DNA of 62,905 nucleotides, the filler included, from Nitrospinae bacterium RIFCSPLOWO2_12_FULL_45_22 (GTDB lineage Bacteria > 2-12-FULL-45-22), in the NCBI GenBank assembly GCA_001803565.1. It is 8 parts of 8 records of this genome, joined end to end, with 100 filler letters (N's around TTAATTAATTAA, not from the genome) between each part and the next. Parts side by side here need not be neighbours in the genome. Positions count along the whole stretch, not along the records: positions 40,528 to 47,448 come from MHDQ01000102.1; 7 more parts are not named here. One strand, written 5' to 3'. The notes beneath the pieces are model-generated. The model had not been told where the DNA came from and made no database searches. It saw only the letters and a program-made list of their open reading frames with translations. Numbering within the stretch: the first letter of the stretch is position 1; every line of letters starts with the position of its first letter. This document shows positions 3,489 to 62,616 of this stretch, in pieces. Made by a program: the position numbers and the translations under genes.

Positions 3489-4433
3489 TTGATCTACCCA
3501 AACCTTGCGCTGACCCTGGCTTATTTATTAGACTTGATCTTAGGGGACCCCCGGGGCTGGCCCCATCCGGTAAAGATAATGGGCCGCGGGATAGGCCGTG
3601 CAGAAAAGCTATTGTGGCACGGAGGGAAAGGGGATCGGTGGTGGGGTTTGGTGTTATGGCTGTTGATTGTTTTGCCAGCTTATTTTATACCCTGGTGGTT
3701 AATTCAAATGGTCTATAATTATTCTTCCCTGGGTGCTATAATGGTGTCCATCATCCTGATCTATTGGTGTCTGTCGGTTAAGGGTCTAGCCGTAGAAGCC
3801 GGGAGAGTGAGGCAGGCCCTGGAAGGGGGTGATTTGGAAAAGGCTAAAGGATACCTGGCTTTAATCGTGGGTCGCGATCCAAAACGATTGGAGCAGGAAG
3901 AGATAATCAGGGCTACGGTGGAGACCGTGGCAGAAAATATTACTGACGGCATTATTTCCCCCCTCTTCTATGCCTTCATAGGCGGAGCACCATTGGCTAT
4001 GGCTTATAAAGCGGTAAATACTCTGGATTCTATGGTGGGTTATAAAAACGAAAAATACCGGTACTTTGGCTATTTTTCAGCAAAGGCCGATGACATCTTT
4101 AATTATATCCCTGCCAGGCTCTCAGTCTTCTTTATCTACTTAGCCTGTCTGGTATTAAGAAAAAACCCTTTATCAGCCCTAATCACCGCCATACAAGATG
4201 GTAAGAAGCACCCCAGCCCTAATGCTGGTTTACCGGAAGCTGCAGTAGCTGGGGCATTGGGCTTACGGCTAGGGGGCCCCAATTTCTATCAGGGGATACT
4301 GGTAGAAAAGCCCTACCTGGGCCGGCACAATAATACCCCTACGGTCAATAATATTCGAGAAGTAATCAAAATAATGCATACTGCGGCACTGCTGGCTGTA
4401 ATAGCTGCCTGTTTGATTAATCTTTGGTTATGA
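3489..4433 (+). CDS. cbiB: Adenosylcobinamide-phosphate synthase
   Basis: LDLILGDP..PHPV, IVGRD, ETVAENITDG, YKAVNTLDSMVGYK and HPSPNAG motifs. Confidence 0.95.
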   Translation: MIYPNLALTLAYLLDLILGDPRGWPHPVKIMGRGIGRAEKLLWHGGKGDRWWGLVLWLLIVLPAYFIPWWLIQMVYNYSSLGAIMVSIILIYWCLSVKGLAVEAGRVRQALEGGDLEKAKGYLALIVGRDPKRLEQEEIIRATVETVAENITDGIISPLFYAFIGGAPLAMAYKAVNTLDSMVGYKNEKYRYFGYFSAKADDIFNYIPARLSVFFIYLACLVLRKNPLSALITAIQDGKKHPSPNAGLPEAAVAGALGLRLGGPNFYQGILVEKPYLGRHNNTPTVNNIREVIKIMHTAALLAVIAACLINLWL

Positions 4434-8930: not shown

Positions 8931-9030
8931 NNNNNNNNNNNNNNNNNNNNNNNNNNNNNNNNNNNNNNNNNNNNTTAATTAATTAANNNNNNNNNNNNNN
9001 NNNNNNNNNNNNNNNNNNNNNNNNNNNNNN
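8931..9030. other. Artificial contig linker
   Basis: N44-TTAATTAATTAA-N44, with stops in all six frames. Confidence 0.98.
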
Positions 9031-16006: not shown

Positions 16007-16106
16007 NNNNNNNNNNNNNNNNNNNNNNNNNNNNNNNNNNNNNNNNNNNNTTAATTAATTAANNNNNNNNNNNNNNNNNNNNNNNNNNNNNNNNNNNNNN
16101 NNNNNN
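16007..16106. other. Artificial contig linker
   Basis: N44-TTAATTAATTAA-N44. Confidence 0.98.
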
Positions 16107-23046: not shown

Positions 23047-23146
23047 NNNNNNNNNNNNNNNNNNNNNNNNNNNNNNNNNNNNNNNNNNNNTTAATTAATT
23101 AANNNNNNNNNNNNNNNNNNNNNNNNNNNNNNNNNNNNNNNNNNNN
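23047..23146. other. Artificial contig linker
   Basis: N44-TTAATTAATTAA-N44. Confidence 0.98.
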
Positions 23147-30107: not shown

Positions 30108-30207
30108 NNNNNNNNNNNNNNNNNNNNNNNNNNNNNNNNNNNNNNNNNNNNTTAATTAATTAANNNNNNNNNNNNNNNNNNNNNNNNNNNNNNNNNNNNN
30201 NNNNNNN
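30108..30207. other. Artificial contig linker
   Basis: N44-TTAATTAATTAA-N44. Confidence 0.98.
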
Positions 30208-40427: not shown

Positions 40428-40527
40428 NNNNNNNNNNNNNNNNNNNNNNNNNNNNNNNNNNNNNNNNNNNNTTAATTAATTAANNNNNNNNNNNNNNNNN
40501 NNNNNNNNNNNNNNNNNNNNNNNNNNN
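40428..40527. other. Artificial contig linker
   Basis: N44-TTAATTAATTAA-N44. Confidence 0.98.
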
Positions 40528-40607
40528 TGAACCGAGGCTATACTGCCTTGCGAGGGGTTGTTTGTACCCTAGACAATAAAGTTAGCAAGTGGTATATTAT
40601 GCCATTA

Positions 40608-40898
40608 ATGAAGAGAGCTAAACTGGTACGGTATATTAAGGTTAAAGAAGACAATGGCAGTATCATGGAGGCTAAGATGTGGCAGGTAGAGCCTTCTCCC
40701 GATAAACCTCATGGCTATAAATATTCTCTGGTCTATATTGTAAAAGGCAAACGGGTTATCGGCTATGACAATAGTGAGGGTAAAGGAGACCATAGACATT
40801 ACGGGGATAAGATAGAGGCATATCAGTTTAAGGATTTGAGGGGCCTTACAGAAGACTTTTACCAGGACATAGAAAGATACAAGGAGGGTAAGCTATGA
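40608..40898 (+). CDS. DUF6516/TumE-like toxin
   Basis: KPHGYKYSLVY...IGYDNSEGKGDHRH; promoter TAGACA(40570)-17-TATATT just upstream. Confidence 0.8.
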   Translation: MKRAKLVRYIKVKEDNGSIMEAKMWQVEPSPDKPHGYKYSLVYIVKGKRVIGYDNSEGKGDHRHYGDKIEAYQFKDLRGLTEDFYQDIERYKEGKL

Positions 40899-41269
40899 GG
40901 GTAAAAAGGGTCAAGATAGGGATAAAAAGCGTAAAGGATGTTTTAGAGGATTTTGTAACGACAGGTGAGGCGATAGAGCGGGGGGAACGGGTAAAGAAAG
41001 AAAAGGGAGTTTACTTTGATAGTATAGAGGGGTTTAGAAAAGCCCTTACTCCAAAGAGGCTAGCGCTACTGACCCTGATTAAAGAGAAACATCCTATGAG
41101 TCTTCAAGAACTAGCAAGACTGGCTGGCAGGGATATGAAAAGCATAGTAACGGATATTGAGATACTGGAAGGTCTTGACCTGGTTGTTATGAATCGAAAG
41201 AAGAAAGGGCGGAGAGAATCTATCCCAACGGTTGAATATGATAGGATAGAGATGGAAATAGCGGTTTAG
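40895..41269 (+). CDS. HTH antitoxin / regulator
   Basis: KALTPKRLALL...SLQELARLAGRDMKSIVTDI...PTVEYD; ATGA-coupled. Confidence 0.8.
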   Translation: MRVKRVKIGIKSVKDVLEDFVTTGEAIERGERVKKEKGVYFDSIEGFRKALTPKRLALLTLIKEKHPMSLQELARLAGRDMKSIVTDIEILEGLDLVVMNRKKKGRRESIPTVEYDRIEMEIAV

Positions 41270-41276
41270 GCAAGAG

Positions 41277-41341
41277 TGGGAGGCCCCTAGGGTCGCCACC
41301 GAAGAGCGGGCAATCTCCACCCGCGTGGGGCCTCAATCCCA
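41277..41341 (+). ncRNA. Candidate structured RNA leader
   Basis: GAGGCCCC/GGGGCCTC outer stem and GCGGG/CCCGC inner stem in an otherwise AT-rich element. Confidence 0.35.
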
Positions 41342-41364
41342 GGATGGTAGTATGAGGAGACAGT

Positions 41365-42840
41365 ATGATAGACTTTATCGAAATAAAACGCTACTTCCCT
41401 GTAGAAAGGGAGTATGAAGCTTTTGAAGAAGTAAAAGGGTTTTTCATAGAGGAGTGGAAAAATGCTGTGGATTTATTTAACATCTGGTCATTAATTAATA
41501 ATTTGATAGTACAGGATTTAAAAGACCAGGAGATCAAATTAACTCCGTTAAATGTGGAATCGAGGGATAAAGAACTTGTCGAATTAATCAGTAAAAGTTT
41601 CTCTGAGTTAATCTATTTGGAGCCGGTGCTATTCCGAGTTTACCTTCATAACTCTACCCCTCCCAAAGACTCTCTTCTTAGAAAGTGGTTGTGGGATAAT
41701 TATCTACCAGAAAAGGTTTTGACCAGGTATTGCGAAGTCCTTCCTGGTATCTTTGACTTACTAAAAGGTAGTGAGTTAGCAAAAAACATCATCCTGGTCG
41801 ATGGTGAACCCGCCGAGAGTATACCCCTCAGATTTTTTGTGGTAGGTCAAATACTTGGTAATCTCCTTTTGGAGTTTAAGCATTACAACCTAATAGACCT
41901 GGTTAAAGGAGCGGGGGCAAAAGAAGAAATCGCAGAATTAAGGAAAAACAGGATTTACAAATCCGATGAGGGGAAGGTCTATGATTATTCCCCCTTATTC
42001 AAAAAGATACATGGTAAAGATAAGCTAATATTGGAAGTATTCACGGAAGAAGATTTTTTGAATCTAGCTGAAGGCGGGCAATCCCAAGCGCAAGCGGCTG
42101 ATGATATCCTCTGCCAGTTCATTCAAAACACCCGGGGTGATGCTAGGGCGGACGAATTATTTGGGCAAGATGATACCTTGAGATATAAACATATTGTCCG
42201 TTACGGGTCGCAAGAAAGAGAGATCCCGATGCAACTATTGCCCAAATACAAAAACCGCATAAAAAAGAAAGTGAGAAGACTAGCATTTACCGATTTGAAA
42301 ACGAAAGACGGTGATAATGGGCCTTATATACGGTATAAGGAAGAGGAAATTTCCGCAGGAATAGAAGGGCTTTATCTTGGTGCTTTAAGCTGGGACAAAG
42401 ATAAAGGGCCAGCTACCCCCCATCTTGTTAAGGCCATTGAATACCATTTGGGGCATACCTTTGAAGAGTTCTCAACCAAAAGCCTGGCCAAAGAAAGATG
42501 TGAAAAAGAAAGTTATGAATATGGAACAGATAAATTCTTTCAGGAGAGGATACTTAAGGAGAAGTTTGAATCATCCGGCGGCAATCTTGATGAACCGATA
42601 AATAACGATACCGAGGATAGTGAAACCTTTAAAGACACCATTCCAGAGAAAGACATCCGTAGCCCGGAAGAAGTGTTATTACAAAAGGAAAAAGATACTG
42701 AATTAGACAAATTTTTTACACAATATCCGGAGATGATAAGCATTATCGAGAAGGAACAAAAGGGAGAGCCCCTATCGCCAAGAGAGCGAAAAATTAAAGA
42801 AAGAAGTTTGAAGAAATACCGCAAGAAAGATAAAGATTAA
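41365..42840 (+). CDS. Hypothetical protein with a divergent sigma70-like C-terminal half
   Basis: Region 2-like EEEISAGIEGLYLGALSWDKDKG; region 3.2-like NLDEPINNDTEDSETFKDTIPEKDIRSPEE; truncated region 4-like LSPRERKIKERSLKK. Confidence 0.6.
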   Translation: MIDFIEIKRYFPVEREYEAFEEVKGFFIEEWKNAVDLFNIWSLINNLIVQDLKDQEIKLTPLNVESRDKELVELISKSFSELIYLEPVLFRVYLHNSTPPKDSLLRKWLWDNYLPEKVLTRYCEVLPGIFDLLKGSELAKNIILVDGEPAESIPLRFFVVGQILGNLLLEFKHYNLIDLVKGAGAKEEIAELRKNRIYKSDEGKVYDYSPLFKKIHGKDKLILEVFTEEDFLNLAEGGQSQAQAADDILCQFIQNTRGDARADELFGQDDTLRYKHIVRYGSQEREIPMQLLPKYKNRIKKKVRRLAFTDLKTKDGDNGPYIRYKEEEISAGIEGLYLGALSWDKDKGPATPHLVKAIEYHLGHTFEEFSTKSLAKERCEKESYEYGTDKFFQERILKEKFESSGGNLDEPINNDTEDSETFKDTIPEKDIRSPEEVLLQKEKDTELDKFFTQYPEMISIIEKEQKGEPLSPRERKIKERSLKKYRKKDKD

Positions 42841-42948
42841 TCATCCCCTAATTTTTCGCCCCCCTGTCACAAATTACCTCTCATTTCGTACTTCTATACC
42901 TAGGAGACTTTAACACCTAGTATAAAACAGTATGAAAAGGGAGGCACC

Positions 42949-43215
42949 ATGATATCCCACTCCAAAAAGGACAACACCTATCAAACCGCTGATCTCGGGA
43001 TTGCCGTCTACCTTTTTACACATGACCACCAGTTGGTCGAGACCACACTCCTAAGCCCAAAGCGGCTTATCTTCCATTTCAAAAAGCAAAAAAATACTGA
43101 GACCCTTGTTGGGTTATATCTGAACGGGACAGGACAAGCCCCTGCGAAACGGCTTTTTGACAATTACCGAGCCCTGCGGGCTTTAGCTTTCCAAGGGACA
43201 GGCAATCTGAGATAA
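42949..43215 (+). CDS. DUF5659-like small DNA-binding protein
   Basis: YQTADLGIAVYL...RLIFHF...FDNYRALR; directly upstream of the primase. Confidence 0.65.
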   Translation: MISHSKKDNTYQTADLGIAVYLFTHDHQLVETTLLSPKRLIFHFKKQKNTETLVGLYLNGTGQAPAKRLFDNYRALRALAFQGTGNLR

Positions 43216-43229
43216 AGGGGGATGCAAGT

Positions 43230-44924
43230 ATGAAAGAGATTAAACCGACATTGAGCCCAGAGCATTTGGCCGATCTGCACAAGAGCGGATTGCTTGATGA
43301 AACGATTGAGCAGGCGGGCCTTTACAGCGTTTGCCCCAGCGAGATTCAGCGGGTACTCGGCTTTGATTCCCCTGAGCTTGAATCCCTTCTTGCCTTTCCC
43401 TATCCCGGCTGTAATGGCTTTACACGATTTAAGTTGTTCCCATCTTTGGAAACGAAAGGTGGGGGCACGATGCGATATTTTCAGGAAAAAGGGTCTGGGC
43501 TTCATATTTATTTTCCCCCTGGGTTTGACCATAGCGCTGAGGTTATCAGGATCTCGGAAGGAGAGAAGAAGTCGTTGGAAGGGACCCAGGAGGGTCTTAA
43601 TGTCTGTGGCTTGGGTGGAATCTGGAACTTTGCCCTAAGAGATAATAATGGGAATCCCCAATTAATAGAGGATTTCCAGCGCTTAGATTTTAGGAGCGTG
43701 AGGAGTATTGAAATTATTCCAGACGGAGACTTTAAGCAGAAAGAGGGGGTTCGGCATGCAGTCTATAGGCTGGCTTATCTGTTAGGAGGGGAGTTCTACA
43801 ATAAGAAAGGATATGAGTCTCTCTCGGAAGCTGTTGATTGCATACGGGTGGTAGAACTGCCTCTCTATTTTAAGCTGGATGATTTTCTTTGTGAATACGG
43901 GGTTCGGGCATTTGAAGGGCTACCCAGGATTACCGTTGCAGACCGGATTTTTGACGACATCAGGGAAAAAGAGCGGAAGGAGGTAACTCGCATTGACTTA
44001 CAGGATTCCCTCATTGGCTTGAAAACCTTACTGACCATGGATATTCCTGGACGACCCCGGTTATTCCTTTGGCTGCCCCAAGGTGGTCTTGCGATGGTTT
44101 ATGGCCCAAGGGGTATAGGGAAGACATACTTCTCCCTTTCTCTGGCCGTGTCTCTTGCTACTGGCAAGTCCTTTTTGCGGTGGGCTGCTCCACCAGAGAC
44201 GGGGGTTCTTTTAGTTGATGGAGAGATGCTGATATCGGACTTGAGAGAGCGGCTCGTAAACCTACTACCGCATGAACCCGCAAAGCCAATTAGCCTCTTA
44301 TCCGGGGAACAGGTATTTATGAAGATTGACCGGGACTTAAACTTAGCGGATCTGGAATTTCAGGCAGCCGTTATAGGATTATTGGAGGCTAATCCAGAGC
44401 TTCGAGTTGTGGTCGTTGACAATATTTCATGTCTCTTCATGGGGTTAAAGGAATCTGATAAGAACGATTGGGAGAAGGTTATACCCTGGCTCCTAACACT
44501 TCGGCGACGGGGAATTAGCGTTGTATTGATACACCATTCCGGAAAGAGCGGCGACCAACGTGGCACCAGTGGCCGGGAAGATATGCTTGATAGCGTCATC
44601 CGGCTTGAATCAGTCCCGGGCAATCAAAATGAGGGCGCACGGTTTATTGTCAGATTTACAAAATGTAGGGGAGCCTATGGCAAGGACATTGAGCCTTTTG
44701 AAACAGTGTTAGACCTTAACAATCCCGAAGCTTGGACCTGGAAACCGCTTGAGGAGTCGAATTTTGAGCGGATGATTGAGTTGGCAAAAGATGGGGTTGA
44801 CACTGTGAATGATATGGCTAACGAATTGGGGATTTCAAAAGGAATGGTAAGTAGATTAAAAAAGCAAGGAGTTAAGAAAGGAATGTTGAAAGATGGCCGG
44901 AAAATCATCCCAATTGAAGGCTAA
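43230..44924 (+). CDS. Primase-helicase fusion (DUF3854/TOPRIM + AAA_25 RecA-like helicase + C-terminal HTH)
   Basis: ISEGEKK, IIPDGD; YGPRGIGKT, VVVDN, IHHSGKSGDQRGTS. Confidence 0.88.
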   Translation: MKEIKPTLSPEHLADLHKSGLLDETIEQAGLYSVCPSEIQRVLGFDSPELESLLAFPYPGCNGFTRFKLFPSLETKGGGTMRYFQEKGSGLHIYFPPGFDHSAEVIRISEGEKKSLEGTQEGLNVCGLGGIWNFALRDNNGNPQLIEDFQRLDFRSVRSIEIIPDGDFKQKEGVRHAVYRLAYLLGGEFYNKKGYESLSEAVDCIRVVELPLYFKLDDFLCEYGVRAFEGLPRITVADRIFDDIREKERKEVTRIDLQDSLIGLKTLLTMDIPGRPRLFLWLPQGGLAMVYGPRGIGKTYFSLSLAVSLATGKSFLRWAAPPETGVLLVDGEMLISDLRERLVNLLPHEPAKPISLLSGEQVFMKIDRDLNLADLEFQAAVIGLLEANPELRVVVVDNISCLFMGLKESDKNDWEKVIPWLLTLRRRGISVVLIHHSGKSGDQRGTSGREDMLDSVIRLESVPGNQNEGARFIVRFTKCRGAYGKDIEPFETVLDLNNPEAWTWKPLEESNFERMIELAKDGVDTVNDMANELGISKGMVSRLKKQGVKKGMLKDGRKIIPIEG

Positions 44925-45145
44925 AAGTTTATCAAAGTTTACCGAAAGTTTACTGGTAAACTCGAAAAGTTTACCAAATTGGATAGGTAAACTTTACCCT
45001 TTTATTTTAGTAAACTTTTTGCTGAGATGCTTTGCTGATGCCAATAAAAAAGTTTACCAGAGGGGTAAACAAACAAAAAGTTTACAAGGGTAGTAAACTT
45101 TTTGTTTACCGAAAGTTTACTGGTAACGATTAGCTAGTAAACTTT
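44924..45145. repeat. Iteron array / replication origin
   Basis: About 14 copies of AAAGTTTAC/GTAAACTTT-type units in both orientations, directly after the helicase stop. Confidence 0.85.
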
Positions 45146-45160
45146 ATCAGGATAAAGAAA

Positions 45161-45700
45161 ATGGCTAAATGTGGCAATTGTAATGCAGTCATCAATCCAA
45201 GATGGGAAAGTTGCCTAGTATGTGATTCCCCAGTAAATGCCACTATTACGGTAGAGCCTGAAAAGGAGCAGAAGGCAGAGAAATTAGACAGGGAGCTAGA
45301 ACAAGATGCTATCCCTATCAAGGATAAAGGAGAACAGATAATATCCCTCCATACTAAGATAGACCAGATGTTACCCCTATCTCCTGAAGCTGATTGCTTT
45401 GACCCGGATGGCGCTTTAGTCAGTTTGCTAGCCTGGGCTAGAAAGAATGGCAAGAGCGATGCTGAAGTAGCTAAAGCCATAGATACGGTTATTTCCTCTG
45501 GGACCTTAAAAGCACCCTGGGGTGTCCAGATCAAAAATAGCCCCGTCCTGGGCGATTACTGGGTTGTAAACAATGATGAAGCCAAGAAGCTTATACCGGG
45601 GGATGAAGTTGTCTTTACCCAGCAAGATATTCGGCTCCTGGCTGATATTAGGGAGATATTTGGGGCCAGGGTAGTGGAGGTTAAAAAGCATGAACAATAG
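45161..45700 (+). CDS. Zn-ribbon hypothetical protein
   Basis: CGNC...CLVC N-terminus; C-terminal SPVLGDYWVV...REIFGARV. Confidence 0.7.
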   Translation: MAKCGNCNAVINPRWESCLVCDSPVNATITVEPEKEQKAEKLDRELEQDAIPIKDKGEQIISLHTKIDQMLPLSPEADCFDPDGALVSLLAWARKNGKSDAEVAKAIDTVISSGTLKAPWGVQIKNSPVLGDYWVVNNDEAKKLIPGDEVVFTQQDIRLLADIREIFGARVVEVKKHEQ

Positions 45701-45845
45701 CCCAGGCATGATCCATATCCTGATCCCTAAGGCCCTGCTTATCTTGACACGGGATGAATATATCAGGGCCATAAAGCGAGGCAAGGCATACAAGCGCAGA
45801 GAGGCCCTAGAACAGCGGATAGCAAATAATGGCACAGGAAAATAA
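45690..45845 (+). CDS. Small basic protein, 51 aa (absent from ORF track)
   Basis: GGAGG RBS; MNNSPGMIHILIPKALLILTRDEYIRAIKRGKAYKRREALEQRIANNGTGK*. Confidence 0.6.
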   Translation: MNNSPGMIHILIPKALLILTRDEYIRAIKRGKAYKRREALEQRIANNGTGK

Positions 45846-46053
45846 GCTGGTAGCTGAATTCCAGAAAAGCGATATTGAGATAGTCAGGGTATCCCTAACG
45901 CAGTATCGGAACAAGGACTATTTTGATATTCGGCTCTACTACCAGGAAGAGGGGGAATGGAGGCCCACTAAGAAAGGGCTATGCCTATCCCAGGGCTTAT
46001 TCCTTGAATTTAAGAAAGCTGTCAGGGCGCTAGAAAAGGCCCTGGCTAAGTAG
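45829..46053 (+). CDS. PC4/YdbC-family ssDNA-binding protein
   Basis: VRVSLTQYRNKDYFDIRLYY...WRPTKKGLCL. Confidence 0.85.
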   Translation: MAQENKLVAEFQKSDIEIVRVSLTQYRNKDYFDIRLYYQEEGEWRPTKKGLCLSQGLFLEFKKAVRALEKALAK

Positions 46054-46071
46054 CAAGGAGGCAAATAATAG

Positions 46072-46842
46072 ATGGATCAAGAAAAAATTTTGACCCTGTT
46101 TAGGCAAGGCAAAGGCATAAAGGCTATCGCTAGAGAATTAAACACTTATCCCAACGCTATAAAGCGGGCCCTGGTTAAAATGGGGGTCTATAATGTCCCC
46201 CTTGAGGATAGGGTGACAACAACTAGCAATCAGGTGACAAACGATAACCAGTTTAGTAAACCATCTGATAATCAAACTGCTCTGAAACAATACAAGAAAG
46301 CCTTATGCAAAAATTCCGATACTTGCTCTGTATGCGCCCTTGAACCAGATAAACTCAAGCTGCTTGAGGAGTTATATGTTGCAGGTACTCCTGGCCCAGT
46401 GCTGCATAATTACTTTAACATACCCTCTAAAGACCTTGGCGGTCATGCTTTCCAAAAAAACTGGCATAAGCAAAGGGCCGGGATTGAAAACCCCGAACGT
46501 AAACGGATTATAAGGCAAATGATAGAGGACGAAACCTGGAAAGTTGTTATGAAATCTAAGTCCGAGGGACAGGCAAAGGATAAATTAGGTGGTTTGAAGT
46601 TATTGGGTGAGATGGAAGGGTTAGGGATGGGGACTAAAGAGAAAGACCAGCAGCCGGTTAACATTGGAAGGATCATTAATCTAAGATTCAGCTTGAACGA
46701 TTTATCAGAGCAGCAGAGGGGGCGGGCGCAGGCGATGATGGATCAGATCAGGAAAAACTTGGGTTTGCCTGAGGTCGAGGCCGAGCCTGAGACTGGCTTT
46801 TTGGAGTTGATCCCAGATCAGCATTCAGAAGAGCAAGAGTAA
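46072..46842 (+). CDS. HTH + CxxC protein, possibly terminase-small-subunit-like
   Basis: N-terminal HTH GKGIKAIARELN, CSVC, helical KLGGLKLLGEMEG; late position in the element. Confidence 0.55.
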   Translation: MDQEKILTLFRQGKGIKAIARELNTYPNAIKRALVKMGVYNVPLEDRVTTTSNQVTNDNQFSKPSDNQTALKQYKKALCKNSDTCSVCALEPDKLKLLEELYVAGTPGPVLHNYFNIPSKDLGGHAFQKNWHKQRAGIENPERKRIIRQMIEDETWKVVMKSKSEGQAKDKLGGLKLLGEMEGLGMGTKEKDQQPVNIGRIINLRFSLNDLSEQQRGRAQAMMDQIRKNLGLPEVEAEPETGFLELIPDQHSEEQE

Positions 46843-47046
46843 TGGTGGACGCCATTTTTAAGGCTTTACCAGGAAGGGCTGGGGTTAAAGCGCATAAGTA
46901 AATCGGTGGGCCTGACCCCTACGGCTGTAAAGAAACGGTTAATCAAAGCAGGGGTATACCGGGTTACTTCAAAAGGTACACCTGATAGCCTAGGAGAGAT
47001 AATCAGGTTAATAGATAGAGCAATAGCCCGGATTGATGACATTTAA
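46842..47046 (+). pseudogene. Frameshifted paralogue of the upstream N-terminal HTH
   Basis: ATG GTG GAC GCC ATT TTT A then, in +1 frame, LRLYQEGLGLKRISKSVGLTPTAVKKRLIKAGVYRV. Confidence 0.65.
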
Positions 47047-47058
47047 GGTAGGGCAATT

Positions 47059-47346
47059 ATGTGTGACACTAAAACGATAGACCCTAACTATCCTATAACC
47101 TTTGAGGAACTGAGGGAGTATCTGAGAGTGAGCAAGTACACCTTACAGGATTATCTAGCAGAGGGATTAGGCAGGCAAGCGGGCTTTAAGGTAGGTAAAG
47201 AATGGCGGTTTATGCCCCTGGACGTGATCGAGTGGCTAAAGGATCGGCATAAGAGAAACTTTAAGACCTCCAAAAATATCCTCACTAAAAATGAACTCCA
47301 ATTGATAGCCTCAAGGGCCATAAAAGCCGAAATATCAAGGCATTAG
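47059..47346 (+). CDS. HTH_17 excisionase-like protein
   Basis: ITFEELREYLRVSKYTL...GFKVGKEWRF...VIEWL. Confidence 0.85.
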   Translation: MCDTKTIDPNYPITFEELREYLRVSKYTLQDYLAEGLGRQAGFKVGKEWRFMPLDVIEWLKDRHKRNFKTSKNILTKNELQLIASRAIKAEISRH

Positions 47347-47357
47347 CCCTAAAATTT

Positions 47358-47420
47358 TATGGCGTCCCTATGGCGTGAACATGTCCGAAATGACCCCAAA
47401 ATGACCCCAAAATAAGGCCA
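47358..47420. repeat. 11-bp-period direct repeats, candidate integrase arm sites
   Basis: TATGGCGTCCC TATGGCGTGAA; AAATGACCCCA AAATGACCCCA AAATAAGGCCA. Confidence 0.55.
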
Positions 47421-47448
47421 ATGATACTTTTCACTGTCCTGAAAACCC

Positions 47449-47548
47449 NNNNNNNNNNNNNNNNNNNNNNNNNNNNNNNNNNNNNNNNNNNNTTAATTAA
47501 TTAANNNNNNNNNNNNNNNNNNNNNNNNNNNNNNNNNNNNNNNNNNNN
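47449..47548. other. Artificial contig linker
   Basis: N44-TTAATTAATTAA-N44. Confidence 0.98.
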
Positions 47549-54392: not shown

Positions 54393-54492
54393 NNNNNNNN
54401 NNNNNNNNNNNNNNNNNNNNNNNNNNNNNNNNNNNNTTAATTAATTAANNNNNNNNNNNNNNNNNNNNNNNNNNNNNNNNNNNNNNNNNNNN
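54393..54492. other. Artificial contig linker
   Basis: N44-TTAATTAATTAA-N44. Confidence 0.98.
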
Positions 54493-62343: not shown

Positions 62344-62616
62344 ATGAAAATCAGTTACGATCCTGAGGTTGATGCCCTCTATATCCGCTTGATTGAAGGA
62401 CATCACGAATGCCGCNNNNNNNNNGCCCTCTATATCCGCTTGATTGAAGGACATCACGAATGCCGCACGGTAAGGTTGAACGAAGAGATTGCATTGAACA
62501 TCGGTCCAGGCGAAATACTTGTGGGTATTGAGATACTCGATGCCAAGCAAGTTCTTGGAGGGGGCCAGTTGCCGTCCGTTGCCCTAGAAAACGTACCTTT
62601 GGCCACGAATTCCTAA
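62344..62616 (+). CDS. DUF2283-like antitoxin spanning a 9-N gap with duplicated sequence
   Basis: MKISYDPEVDALYIRL...LVGIEILDA. Confidence 0.8.
   Translation: MKISYDPEVDALYIRLIEGHHECRXXXALYIRLIEGHHECRTVRLNEEIALNIGPGEILVGIEILDAKQVLGGGQLPSVALENVPLATNS

What the first reader, a model, noticed from the sequence alone, without database searches (positions are those of the whole stretch)
41365..42840. Satellite-encoded sigma70-like protein apparently lacking the -35 HTH
Seen: the C-terminal ~200 aa show sigma-like segments in the right order: region 2 (LLPKYKNRIKKKVRRL...EEEISAGIEGLYLGALSWDKDKG), sigma finger (NLDEPINNDTEDSETFKDTI...SPEE) and LSPRERKIKERSLKKYR, which looks like region 4 with its HTH removed. 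The N-terminal ~280 aa are unrecognised. The gene sits just upstream of the replication operon. Inference: a dedicated -10-only sigma factor or an RNA-polymerase-binding decoy that drives the element or interferes with helper phage transcription.
Basis: partly seen in the sequence, partly recalled or inferred. Interest (0 to 1): 0.8.

Follow-up and report, generated by a model that had tools for sequence, protein, structure and literature searches.

The report
Mobile-element sigma factor with a stripped-down promoter-reading domain
This gene encodes a very divergent relative of bacterial sigma factors that has lost part of its usual -35 DNA-reading motif, and it sits next to a conserved promoter-like box in front of the replication genes of a small integrating mobile element, so it probably switches on that element's replication.

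Summary
The window protein matches no Pfam or PHROG model. A 45-sequence family profile hits solved sigma factors (FliA E=1.1e-4, SigA1 2.5e-4; 9 of 10 listed chains). Six of 27 relatives hit Pfam Sigma70_r2. A pLDDT-91 model of residues 268-491 matches sigma domain 2 (3ugo_A, Z 8.1).

Sigma homology runs from about residue 237 through region 2 and the 3.2 finger to a three-helix region-4 remnant. Relatives that keep a full HTH (6 of 45) show the window type lacks about 7 residues, the first HTH helix. Its last basic helix aligns to the recognition helix. Residues 1-235 are unassigned.

The family is rare: 57 representatives among 1.84 billion. It lies in small elements with integrases, one of them a tRNA-Pro island flanked by att repeats.

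A bipartite box, TGTCAC-N16/17-C(G/C)TA(C/T)TT, occurs once per locus, upstream of the replication operon, in all 10 loci that hold that junction. I read the protein as an element-encoded sigma that fires this promoter. "-10-only" is not supported and a decoy is less likely. RNAP binding has only weak in-silico support.

The parts
40548..40898 (+). TumE-like toxin gene (116 aa), first gene on the contig
   Evidence: Pfam PF20126 TumE, E=1.5e-13; phrog_16135, E=6.6e-20
40895..41269 (+). HVO_A0114-type winged-helix protein (124 aa). It is the putative antitoxin or regulator and overlaps the toxin gene's stop.
   Evidence: Pfam PF25212, E=1.1e-21, plus weak HTH_20/MarR hits
41280..41347 (+). Structured RNA motif int-alpA (Rfam RF02996), ending 17 nt upstream of the sigma-like start codon
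   Evidence: Full-length match, 37.6 bits against a gathering score of 35.8, E=3.9e-5 over the contig. Not found at E<=0.1 in 8 related loci.
41365..42840 (+). Sigma-like ORF, 491 aa (the finding)
41365..42069 (+). N-terminal domain, residues 1-235. It is helical with a 4-strand beta-meander (197-225). Unassigned. It holds the family's most conserved block (H173...VYDYSP210).
   Evidence: Invariant columns; AF2 secondary structure; no match
42073..42234 (+). Residues 237-290: region-1.2-like helix plus a conserved beta-hairpin insertion
   Evidence: VIA alignment to an RpoS region 1.2+2 fragment (5h6x_B, model 235-369) and to gp55 (model 241-404); strands in the pLDDT-91 model
42235..42522 (+). 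Residues 291-386: sigma domain 2 (regions 2.1-2.4)
   Evidence: Profile hits to FliA, SigA1, WhiG, SigH and SigB; 3ugo_A Z 8.1, rmsd 2.2 A over 66 residues; column analysis
42544..42663 (+). Residues 394-433: region 3.2 finger-like linker (RILKE..ESSGGxLDxPI...PEE)
   Evidence: HMM alignment to SigA1 ...SLETPIGKEEDSRLGDFIEADGETPEDEV; weak NCBIfam SigH/RpoE hits over residues 407-464
42664..42837 (+). Residues 434-491: three-helix region-4 remnant without the first HTH helix. The last, basic helix carries a nearly invariant Arg (R480).
   Evidence: Alignment with HTH-bearing relatives; near-invariant column R213 of A3; helices
42865..42893 (+). Conserved promoter-like box TGTCAC-N16-CGTACTT. 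The -35-like box is 42865-42870 and the -10-like box is 42887-42893. An A/T-rich tract lies upstream.
   Evidence: One copy per locus in 10 of 10 loci that hold the junction. 12 invariant positions lie in or between the boxes, of 15 invariant in the whole A4 alignment. Chance expectation is 0.13 per window.
42949..43215 (+). DUF5659 protein (88 aa), first gene of the downstream operon
   Evidence: Pfam PF18903, 24.0 bits against a 23.6 cutoff. The same family follows the box in L007, L011 and L012. The L005 ORF is 59% identical.
43230..44924 (+). Replication protein (564 aa): DUF3854 + AAA_25 (primase/helicase-like) with a C-terminal HTH
   Evidence: Pfam AAA_25, E=1.2e-24; DUF3854, E=1.7e-5; PHROG primase/helicase families
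45161..45700 (+). 179-aa protein, function unknown; only a chance-level zinc-ribbon hit at its N-terminus
   Evidence: Only a weak DZR hit, E=0.14
45829..46053 (+). PC4-type protein (74 aa)
   Evidence: Pfam PF02229, E=2.4e-14
46072..46842 (+). 256-aa protein with an N-terminal HTH
   Evidence: HTH_38, E=1.6e-4, below the cutoff
47059..47346 (+). HTH_17 protein (95 aa) at the contig's end. I recall HTH_17 as the excisionase/AlpA-type fold.
   Evidence: Pfam PF12728, E=5e-8

Best explanation
[quoted passage not shown] From residue ~237 it has a region-1.2-like helix, a complete sigma domain 2, a region 3.2 finger and a compacted three-helix region-4 remnant. That remnant has lost the first helix of the helix-turn-helix. 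The sigma-like part is fused to an unassigned ~235-aa N-terminal domain.

It belongs to a rare family carried by small integrating mobile elements. One is shown to sit in a tRNA gene; integrases or a resolvase are seen in five loci.

The most likely mechanism has four steps:
1. Domain 2 docks on the beta-prime clamp helices of the host RNA polymerase core.
2. The finger enters the active-site cleft.
3. The holoenzyme initiates at a single element promoter, TGTCAC-N16-CGTACTT at 42865-42893.
4. That promoter drives the DUF5659 + primase/helicase operon, so the protein acts as the switch for element replication.

Shown here: sigma homology and fold, absence of a canonical HTH, the conserved gene order, and the conserved box. 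Inferred: RNA polymerase binding, that this protein (not a host sigma or another regulator) reads the box, and which part contacts the -35-like TGTCAC.
For: Homology:
- The family profile A3 hits solved sigma factors: FliA E=1.1e-4 over profile 272-433, SigA1 2.5e-4, WhiG 3.2e-3, SigH 7.2e-3, SigB 8.5e-3. Nine of the 10 listed chains are sigma factors.
- Pfam Sigma70_r2 hits 6 of 27 members. P0002 scores 25.5 bits against a 24-bit cutoff.
- The HTH-bearing member P0025 passes Sigma70_ECF, 22.1 against 21.1 bits.
- All 5 weak NCBIfam hits of the window protein are sigma models.

Fold:
- The model of residues 268-491 has pLDDT 91.0.
- All 50 Foldseek rows listed are sigma chains, though none reaches E<=0.001. 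The best is 5x22_F, E=2.2e-3, prob 0.99.
- VIA-wide gives 3ugo_A (sigma-A domain 2) Z 8.1, rmsd 2.2 A over 66 residues, and 17 of the top 18 rows are sigma factors.

Functional hallmarks conserved in the family:
- D-E-x-Q-E-A-x-x-G-L in region 2.2.
- An aromatic or His residue in 42 of 45 sequences at the column that aligns to the second Trp of ATWWI in SigA1.
- GGxLDxPI in the finger.

Target:
- The pattern TGTC-N18/19-CSTAYTT occurs once, on the + strand, in each of the 10 loci that contain the junction. Three loci lack the junction and have no match.
- L006 and L008 were not used to derive the pattern.
- The box stays with the start of the DUF5659/replication operon even when it is 1,626 nt from the sigma-like stop codon in L012.
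- The replication modules differ across loci: DUF3854+AAA_25; SF2 helicase + NrS-1-type domain/AAA_25; CHC2 + DUF3987 or DUF927; Prim-Pol.
- The -35-box variant (TGTCAC or TGTCCG) goes with the class of C-terminal helix, in 6 and 2 loci.
- The geometry resembles ECF promoters: AAC at -35, CGT at -10, spacers of 14-17 bp (PMC5758882, passages read).

Complex prediction of the domain-2 core with a Brocadiales beta-prime segment (residues 250-345):
- Verdict: weak support. Median score 0.37, best of 3 controls 0.04.
- The mark was reached by 58 of 80 solved complexes and 2 of 110 mismatched pairs. A score of 0.60 or under was seen in only 7 of those 80 and in both mismatches that passed.
- The runs agree in at least 44% of contacts, and the partner pLDDT is at least 55.
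- Sigma/beta-prime complexes are solved, so the pass may come from memory.
Against: - The window protein itself hits no Pfam or PHROG family at E<=1.
- It carries S330/A331 where 33 of 45 and 27 of 45 relatives have the Q-E of region 2.2. I recall these as core-binding residues of sigma-70.
- No Foldseek match reaches E<=0.001. VIA Z values of 7-8 are in the range the tool calls common for helical models.
- No canonical DNA-reading HTH is present, yet the box has a conserved -35-like half. Another factor may read it.
- The box is not upstream of the sigma-like gene, so there is no autoregulation signature.
- The -35/tail co-variation rests on only two lineages.
- The degenerate pattern also matched twice elsewhere in the window (30220 on the - strand, 50615 on the + strand), in host-like contexts.
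- The window's own host RNA polymerase is unknown, because no genome is held.
Confidence: 0.6

Rival explanations
1. RNA-polymerase-binding decoy. The protein occupies the sigma-binding surface of core polymerase through domain 2 and the finger but cannot direct initiation, because region 4 is crippled. It thereby damps host or helper-phage transcription.
For: - No canonical HTH in the window protein.
- Non-consensus S330/A331 in region 2.2.
- Phage proteins that displace host initiation factors are in the literature (bioRxiv 10.64898/2026.10.05.756390; seen only as a search listing and abstract start).
Against: - The C-terminal helix is conserved across the 39 HTH-less sequences of A3, with a nearly invariant Arg.
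- An aromatic or His residue is conserved at the W-dyad-equivalent column, and the finger motif is conserved.
- A conserved bipartite promoter-like box accompanies the gene in every locus that holds the junction.
Confidence: 0.15
2. The protein is a working sigma, but the TGTCAC...CGTACTT box is read by something else. Candidates are a host ECF-type sigma or an element regulator such as the HTH proteins on the contig. The sigma-like protein would then act on other promoters, for example those of a helper phage or the host.
For: - The box looks like an ordinary ECF-type promoter with a -35 half, which a sigma without an HTH would not be expected to read.
- A semi-conserved TATA lies just downstream of the box.
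- Several HTH proteins are encoded on the contig.
Against: - Two family loci lie in MAGs labelled Ca. Brocadiales and Thermodesulfobacteriota and one protein comes from Ca. Wunengus. The hosts of the box-bearing metagenome loci are not known, and whether different hosts would share an ECF sigma specificity is untested.
- The other element regulators are not conserved across loci. Only the sigma-like gene and, in most loci, DUF5659 are.
- Looser copies of the box in the window number 13, below the chance expectation of 16.7.
Confidence: 0.15
3. The main function lies in the conserved N-terminal domain, for example origin binding or replication initiation. The sigma-like part would only tether RNA polymerase or act as a structural relic, so the protein would not be a promoter-specificity factor.
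For: - The most conserved block of the main group lies in the N-domain, residues 173-213.
- The gene is always next to replication genes.
Against: - Several members keep the sigma-like core with unrelated N-termini: P0034, P0041, P0045, P0048, P0050, P0056, P0057. The shared element of the family is therefore the sigma part.
- No standalone N-domain was found among shorter proteins.
Confidence: 0.07
4. A decaying sigma gene whose HTH loss marks a pseudogene in progress.
For: A deletion lies inside the HTH relative to 6 relatives.
Against: - 39 of 45 sequences in A3 share the HTH-less form and a conserved tail.
- The full-length frames are open at only 26-43% identity across loci.
- The model has high confidence.
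Confidence: 0.03

Closest known systems
Bacteriophage T4 gp55 (late sigma; PDB 7d7d chain F)
   Same: [quoted passage not shown]
- It uses host RNA polymerase and has no canonical -35-reading HTH.
- Structural match: Z 7.5 over 125 residues (model 241-404), and Z 5.3.
- Its biology is tied to replication: T4 late transcription is activated by the sliding clamp (PMC7892883, Introduction read).
   Different: - T4 late promoters have only a -10-like element and no conservation at -35. gp55 also needs the co-activator gp33 on the beta flap plus the gp45 clamp (PMC7892883).
- Here a region-4 remnant and a 3.2 finger are kept, and the candidate promoter is bipartite.
- Here there is a ~235-aa N-terminal domain.
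- No sequence-level match to gp55 was seen.
Group 3 and group 4 (ECF) alternative sigma factors (FliA/WhiG, SigH, RpoE/SigW)
   Same: - They give the best sequence-profile matches.
- The HTH-bearing relative P0025 passes Pfam Sigma70_ECF.
- The candidate promoter has ECF-like geometry. I recall sigma-W as TGAAAC...CGTA; PMC5758882 confirms the AAC/CGT motifs and spacers of 14-17 bp.
   Different: - The window protein lacks the first helix of the region 4.2 HTH.
- It has a large N-terminal extension and a beta-hairpin inserted before region 2.1.
- It has no region 3.0-3.1 domain of group-3 size.
- It is not next to an anti-sigma gene.
- It fails every curated sigma cutoff on its own.
Sigma-like subunits of giant-phage non-virion RNA polymerases (AR9 gp226, phiKZ gp68)
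   Same: They are a precedent for a sigma-derived specificity subunit whose C-terminal domain sits at the region-4 position and touches upstream DNA without an HTH (PMC7618050, passages read).
   Different: - Those proteins are stably embedded subunits of phage-encoded polymerases.
- They have no detectable sequence similarity to sigma.
- The present protein keeps recognisable sigma sequence motifs, and no polymerase genes are seen in these elements.
Phage-inducible chromosomal islands and P4-like satellites (int - alpA - pri architecture)
   Same: - The elements are small, with a tyrosine integrase and their own primase/helicase, and one sits in a tRNA gene.
- The window's contig encodes an HTH_17 protein.
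- The int-alpA-pri layout of classical PICIs is described in a table legend of PMC13612085.
   Different: - No helper-interference, capsid-redirection or packaging genes were seen.
- No relatives were found in phage, plasmid or viral-contig collections.
- I know of no described satellite that uses its own sigma factor, and none turned up in my searches.

Membership tests
Sigma-70 family | Domain 2 (regions 2.1-2.4), by sequence and fold | tested here: met
   - Family profile against PDB sigma factors, E down to 1.1e-4.
- Sigma70_r2 in 6 of 27 members, one above the cutoff.
- 3ugo_A Z 8.1, rmsd 2.2 A over 66 residues.
- The window protein alone is below all curated cutoffs.
Sigma-70 family | Region 2.2 core-binding signature (D-x-x-Q-E-G-x-x-G-L; signature recalled) | tested here: inconclusive
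   The family consensus is D-E-x-Q-E-A-x-x-G-L. The window protein has E-E-I-S-A-G-I-E-G-L: S where 33 of 45 have Q, and A where 27 of 45 have E.
Sigma-70 family | Region 3.2 finger/linker | tested here: met
   GGNLDEPINND...SPEE aligns to SLETPIGKEEDS...TPEDEV of SigA1. GGxLDxPI is conserved: G in 41 of 45, L in 39 of 45, D in 36 of 45.
Sigma-70 family | Region 4.2 helix-turn-helix that reads the -35 element | tested here: not met
   - No HTH or Sigma70_r4 hit at E<=1 in the window protein.
- There is a ~7-residue gap at the first HTH helix relative to P0010, P0025, P0054, P0059 and P0061.
- Only the helix equivalent to the recognition helix remains.
Sigma-70 family | Binds RNA polymerase core (beta-prime clamp helices) | tested here: inconclusive
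   The complex prediction gave weak support only: median 0.37 against a best control of 0.04. The pass may reflect solved sigma/beta-prime complexes.
Sigma-70 family | Confers promoter-specific initiation | not testable with these tools
   There is only a candidate cognate box, conserved across loci.
ECF (group 4) sigma factors | Two-domain sigma2-sigma4 architecture that passes an ECF profile | tested here: inconclusive
   P0025 passes Sigma70_ECF (22.1 against 21.1 bits), but only over its C-terminus. The window protein has weak RpoE/SigH hits far below the cutoffs. The conserved finger motif aligned to a group 1 sigma.
T4 gp55-type late sigma | Domain-2-only protein with no region-4 equivalent, acting on promoters with only a -10-like element | tested here: not met
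   A three-helix region-4 remnant is present and the conserved box is bipartite. Only the domain-2 fold is shared.
Phage satellite (PICI / P4-like) | Integrase + regulator + own replication module, flanked by att sites | tested here: met
   - Met in relatives. L007 has an integrase, a tRNA-Pro and a 56-nt direct repeat, 95% identical. L011, L012 and L001 have integrases.
- The window's contig shows the replication module and HTH_17 but ends before any integrase.
Phage satellite (PICI / P4-like) | Dependence on, or interference with, a helper phage (packaging or capsid-redirection genes) | tested here: inconclusive
   None was recognised among the neighbours scanned. Several ORFs have no family, so absence is not shown.
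Rfam RF02996 int-alpA RNA | Covariance-model score at or above the gathering threshold | tested here: met
   37.6 bits against 35.8, full model 1-71, at window 41280-41347 on the + strand.

The most novel reading that the evidence does not exclude
This would be a new class of sigma factor in which -35 recognition no longer uses a helix-turn-helix. A three-helix region-4 stub with one basic helix, possibly helped by the novel ~235-aa N-terminal domain, would read an invariant TGTC box. The whole protein would serve as a one-promoter switch that licenses replication of integrating elements in Brocadiales, Thermodesulfobacteriota and other uncultured bacteria. In the window's element the switch may itself be controlled by the int-alpA RNA immediately upstream.
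Probability: 0.3. Interest if true: 0.8.

Novelty: new variant of a known kind. Interest (0 to 1): 0.62.

Why it matters
Sigma factors are the textbook case of modular promoter recognition: domain 2 reads -10 and the domain 4 HTH reads -35. The known exceptions are few, such as T4 gp55 and the giant-phage sigma-like subunits.

This family offers a natural series within one lineage. Six of the 45 aligned sequences keep a full HTH and 39 lack its first helix. Each of the eight loci examined, all of the HTH-less type, pairs the gene with a single conserved, bipartite candidate promoter. That makes a direct question testable: can a sigma still use a -35-like element after losing half of its HTH, or does another domain take over?

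It also points to a regulatory logic not described for small integrating elements or satellites, in which an element-encoded sigma gates the replication operon. The short, orthogonal sigma/promoter pair could also be useful as a genetic part. Finally, automatic annotation leaves the HTH-less members I looked up either unnamed or called 'hypothetical', so the family is currently invisible.

Tried and rejected
- **Direct scans of the window protein.** Pfam and PHROGs gave 0 families at E<=1. NCBIfam gave only sub-threshold sigma hits.
- **Small-alignment profile (A1, 8 sequences) against PDB.** Only FliA at E=2.1. It needed the 45-sequence alignment.
- **Full-length AF2 model.** Mediocre, pLDDT 69.4. 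Its Foldseek search had no E<=0.001 hit.
- **N-terminal domain (residues 1-235).** ESM Atlas features and structure gave nothing above chance. The search for shorter standalone proteins gave none. VIA-wide on the full model matched only residues 235-491. BFVD had no E<=0.001 match.
- **The search for related loci.** A2 failed as too diverse, so I repeated it with A1. Viral contigs gave none for A1 or P0054. tblastn against phages and plasmids gave no match.
- **Own genome.** None is held, so the host's own beta-prime could not be used.
- **RNA evidence.** No RNA holder was listed.
- **MFE folding of the leader upstream of the sigma-like gene.** No better than shuffles: z = +0.82 for the window, and between -1.03 and +1.03 for five other loci. 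The Rfam hit rests on the covariance model.
- **Tree of the core.** The run did not finish its careful search, so only a quick, weakly supported tree was obtained. HTH-bearing members fall in three places, but a single origin is not excluded. No polarity is claimed.
- **DUF5659 against PDB.** Nothing meaningful; the best hit was E=0.59.
- **DUF5659 as an obligate partner of the sigma-like protein.** Considered but not tested. In L009 an HTH_31-type ORF takes its place.
- **Looser copies of the box in the window.** 13 found against 16.7 expected. The two extra exact-pattern matches lie in host-like contexts.
- **Literature.** Searches returned no paper describing this family. 'DUF5659' is in 0 papers. 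Supplementary files were not consulted.
Full report
**1. The observation**

The ORF exists exactly as given: 41365-42840, + strand, ATG start, 491 aa.

The window is not one piece of DNA. It is eight contigs joined by 44 N + TTAATTAATTAA + 44 N linkers. The gene's true contig is window 40528-47448, 6,921 bp, and was recovered as an identical public metagenome contig, L003. Genes left of 40528 and right of 47448 are not neighbours.

**2. Is it sigma-like?**

By itself the protein matches nothing in Pfam or PHROGs at E<=1. NCBIfam gives five hits far below the cutoffs, all to SigH/RpoE-type sigma models over residues 407-464.

The family is rare. An exhaustive search of 1.84 billion representatives found 57 at E<=1e-3 and 25 at E<=1e-30. 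The word-indexed search found 8, including the query itself.

Sequence evidence at family level:
- Pfam Sigma70_r2 hits 2 of 8 members and 6 of 27. P0002 is above the gathering score, 25.5 against 24 bits.
- A profile of 45 sequences (A3) hits solved sigma factors: FliA 1.1e-4 (profile 272-433 to FliA 17-183), SigA1 2.5e-4, WhiG 3.2e-3, SigH 7.2e-3 and SigB 8.5e-3. Nine of the ten chains listed are sigma factors; the tenth is a glucokinase at E=0.98.
- The printed alignments place LLPKY..I.K on region 2.1 and DE.QEA..GL..GA..WD..KG on region 2.2. They place the following W/L/W helix on 2.3-2.4 and GG.LD.PI....PE on the region 3.2 finger.

Structural evidence:
- The full-length model was mediocre, pLDDT 69.4.
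- A model of residues 268-491 built on the 45-sequence alignment reached pLDDT 91.0.
- Foldseek found no hit at E<=0.001, but all 50 rows listed are sigma chains. The best is 5x22_F, E=2.2e-3, prob 0.99.
- The Foldseek-independent VIA search of 48,161 chains put sigma-A domain 2 bound to -10 DNA first (3ugo_A, Z 8.1, rmsd 2.2 A over 66 residues).
- In that search 17 of the first 18 rows are sigma factors. The other row is 3les, titled '2F5 Epitope scaffold ES2'.
- The tool warns that Z of 7-8 is common for helical models. The structural evidence therefore counts because it agrees with the sequence evidence, not on its own.
- On the full model, every sigma match falls within residues ~235-491. 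T4 gp55 scores Z 7.5 over 125 residues, and an RpoS region 1.2+2 fragment aligns from residue 235.

**3. Anatomy**

- Residues 1-235: an unassigned domain of helices plus a four-strand meander. It carries the most conserved block of the main group, H173 to P210.
- Residues 237-290: a region-1.2-like helix and a conserved beta-hairpin.
- Residues 291-386: domain 2.
- Residues 394-433: the finger.
- Residues 434-491: three helices.

Members P0034, P0041, P0045, P0048, P0050, P0056 and P0057 share only the C-terminal ~250 residues and have other N-termini. The sigma-like core is therefore what defines the family.

In region 2.2 the window protein is atypical. It has S330 and A331 where 33 of 45 relatives have Q and 27 of 45 have E. 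This probably explains why Pfam misses it, and it leaves its core-binding strength open.

The column that aligns to the second Trp of ATWWI in SigA1 holds W, Y, H or F in 42 of 45 sequences. The window protein has H.

**4. Region 4**

Six of the 45 sequences end in a full HTH: P0010, P0025, P0054, P0057, P0059 and P0061.
- P0025 passes Pfam Sigma70_ECF over residues 441-506.
- P0025 and P0054 are already named sigma factors by their source. The HTH-less members I looked up are unnamed or 'hypothetical'.

Aligned to five of these six relatives, the HTH-less majority differs by a gap of about seven residues that removes the first HTH helix (..KEQ---DIA..). The window's last helix, RERKIKERSLKKYRKK, lines up with the recognition helix (..PSAINQRIKN..). 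One Arg in it, R480, is nearly invariant across both kinds (column R213 of A3).

But region 4 is compacted, not cut off.

A quick, weakly supported tree places the HTH-bearing members in three spots. A single origin is not excluded, so I claim no polarity.

**5. Context**

On the window's contig the gene order is as follows:
- a TumE-like toxin;
- an HVO_A0114 winged-helix protein;
- an int-alpA RNA (Rfam RF02996, above the gathering score);
- the sigma-like gene;
- a 108-nt spacer;
- DUF5659;
- a DUF3854+AAA_25 replication protein;
- a 179-aa protein of unknown function;
- a PC4-type protein;
- an HTH protein;
- an HTH_17 protein.

Related loci repeat the core order of sigma-like gene, spacer, small gene, replication genes, but with different replication modules:
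- L007: SF2 helicase plus an NrS-1-type domain/AAA_25 protein.
- L011 and L012: CHC2 zinc finger plus DUF3987.
- L005: CHC2 plus DUF927.
- L009: Prim-Pol/PriCT_1/DUF3987.
- L006: Prim-Pol.

Recombinases at the edges are tyrosine integrases in L007, L011, L012 and L001, and a serine resolvase in L009.

In L007 the integrase abuts a tRNA-Pro. A 56-nt repeat of the tRNA's 3' part (95% identical) lies 15.2 kb away, which delimits an integrated island.

Two family loci lie in MAGs labelled Candidatus Brocadiales and Thermodesulfobacteriota, and one protein comes from Candidatus Wunengus.

No relative was found in 50,697 phage records, 72,556 plasmids or the viral contig set. 'Satellite' therefore remains a guess. 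'Small integrating element with its own replication module' is what is shown.

**6. A candidate cognate promoter**

The spacers share a bipartite box, TGTCAC-N16/17-C(G/C)TA(C/T)TT. L011 and L012 have the variant TGTCCG...CCTATTT.

How specific the box is:
- The pattern TGTC-N18/19-CSTAYTT occurs once, on the + strand, in each of the 10 loci that contain the junction. The three loci without a match lack that junction.
- L003 and L004 repeat the window. L010 and L011 look like the same element: identical BLAST statistics to the query and the same gene layout with a constant offset.
- That leaves eight distinct loci, the window included. L006 and L008 played no part in deriving the pattern.
- In the window the chance expectation is 0.13 and three matches were found. 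One is at 42865-42893. The two others are on other contigs in host-like settings, one beside a cold-shock-type gene and one inside a glyoxalase-family ORF.
- Looser copies (13) are below the chance expectation of 16.7.

Evidence that the box is a promoter:
- Twelve invariant positions lie in or between the two boxes, out of 15 invariant positions in the whole alignment. An A/T-rich tract precedes the box, and a leader of roughly 35-55 nt with a GGAG-type ribosome site follows.
- In L005, L011 and L012 a hairpin followed by a T-run lies between the sigma-like stop codon and the box. I saw this by eye.
- The box follows the replication operon, not the sigma-like gene. In L012 it is 1,626 nt past the stop codon but directly before DUF5659.
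- The two -35 variants go with two classes of C-terminal helix, in six and two loci. That is only two lineages, so it is a hint and no more.

The geometry resembles ECF-type promoters, which have 'AAC' at -35, 'CGT' at -10 and spacers of 14-17 bp. Sigma-W uses CGTA (PMC5758882, passages read).

**7. Mechanism**

My reading (confidence 0.6) is that the protein is an element-encoded sigma. It binds host core polymerase through domain 2 and directs it to this single promoter, switching on replication.

- Shown: homology, fold, missing HTH helix, conserved synteny, conserved box.
- Inferred: core binding, recognition of the box by this protein, and which part reads TGTC.

I tested docking of the domain-2 core on the beta-prime clamp-helix segment (residues 250-345) of a Brocadiales genome that carries a related element.
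- The verdict was weak support: median 0.37 against a best control of 0.04.
- The mark was reached by 58 of 80 solved complexes and 2 of 110 mismatched pairs. Scores of 0.60 or under came from only 7 of those 80 and from both mismatches that passed.
- The runs agree in at least 44% of contacts, and the partner pLDDT is at least 55.
- Such complexes are solved, so the pass may reflect memory.

The rivals are:
- an RNA-polymerase decoy (0.15);
- a working sigma whose targets lie elsewhere, with the box read by a host ECF sigma or another regulator (0.15);
- an N-domain-centred replication function (0.07);
- a decaying gene (0.03).

**8. Comparison and novelty**

The protein works most like T4 gp55, a diverged, mobile-element sigma without an HTH, tied to replication (PMC7892883, Introduction read). 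It is not of that type, because it keeps a finger and a region-4 stub and its box is bipartite.

By sequence it is nearest to group 3/ECF sigmas, but it fails the region 4.2 HTH criterion.

Giant-phage sigma-like subunits show that upstream DNA can be touched from the region-4 position without an HTH (PMC7618050, passages read).

My eight answered literature searches found no description of this family, and 'DUF5659' appears in no paper held.

I rate it a new variant of a known kind, with interest 0.62.

Noticed in passing
window 8931-9030, 16007-16106, 23047-23146, 30108-30207, 40428-40527, 47449-47548, 54393-54492: The window is eight contigs concatenated with 44 N + TTAATTAATTAA + 44 N linkers. 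Synteny across these points is artificial. A further run of 9 N lies at 62416-62424.
   Followed up: yes
window 41280-41347 (+): A full-length match to Rfam RF02996 (int-alpA RNA), above the gathering score, ends 17 nt before the sigma-like start codon. It is absent at E<=0.1 from 8 related loci, so it is not a family feature. It may be a cis-regulatory leader of this particular copy. Its function is unknown; I recall the motif from a comparative-genomics survey and did not read that paper.
   Followed up: partly
window 40548-41269 (+): A TumE-like toxin gene overlaps an HVO_A0114 winged-helix gene, forming a likely toxin-antitoxin or regulator pair at the contig's start. In L005 and L001, HicB-like (and MerR) proteins occupy the position upstream of the sigma-like gene. 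Antitoxin-type regulators may therefore control its expression.
   Followed up: partly
L007 2457-2512, 3187-3242, 18355-18410: Besides the 95%-identical att pair, a third, 63%-identical copy of the tRNA-Pro 3' part lies 730 nt upstream. It may be a relic of an earlier or tandem integration.
   Followed up: no
window 45829-46053 (+): A 74-aa protein with a PC4 (transcriptional coactivator p15) domain, E=2.4e-14, is encoded inside the element. I recall this fold as binding single-stranded DNA.
   Followed up: no
window 41881-42003 (protein residues 173-213): The most conserved block of the main group, H-Y-x-x-I-D-x-V-K-x-x-G-...-L-R-x-x-R-...-V-x-D-Y-x-P, lies in the unassigned N-terminal domain at a helix followed by a beta-hairpin. 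No family or fold was found for it.
   Followed up: partly
L005 about 2150-2190; L011 about 4220-4255; L012 about 3610-3650: GC-rich hairpins followed by T-runs (terminator-like) lie between the upstream gene and the conserved box. I saw them by eye in the printed spacers and did not scan them.
   Followed up: no
cluster of P0001: The 90%-identity cluster of the window protein includes a 52-aa fragment on a 240-bp contig labelled Klebsiella pneumoniae, and two ~37-aa fragments named '7-cyano-7-deazaguanine reductase'. These are probably mislabelled or contaminant fragments.
   Followed up: no
L009 4918-5148 (+): In this locus the small gene after the box is an HTH_31-type ORF (E=1.7e-4, below the cutoff), not DUF5659. 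DUF5659 is therefore not an invariable partner of the sigma-like gene.
   Followed up: partly
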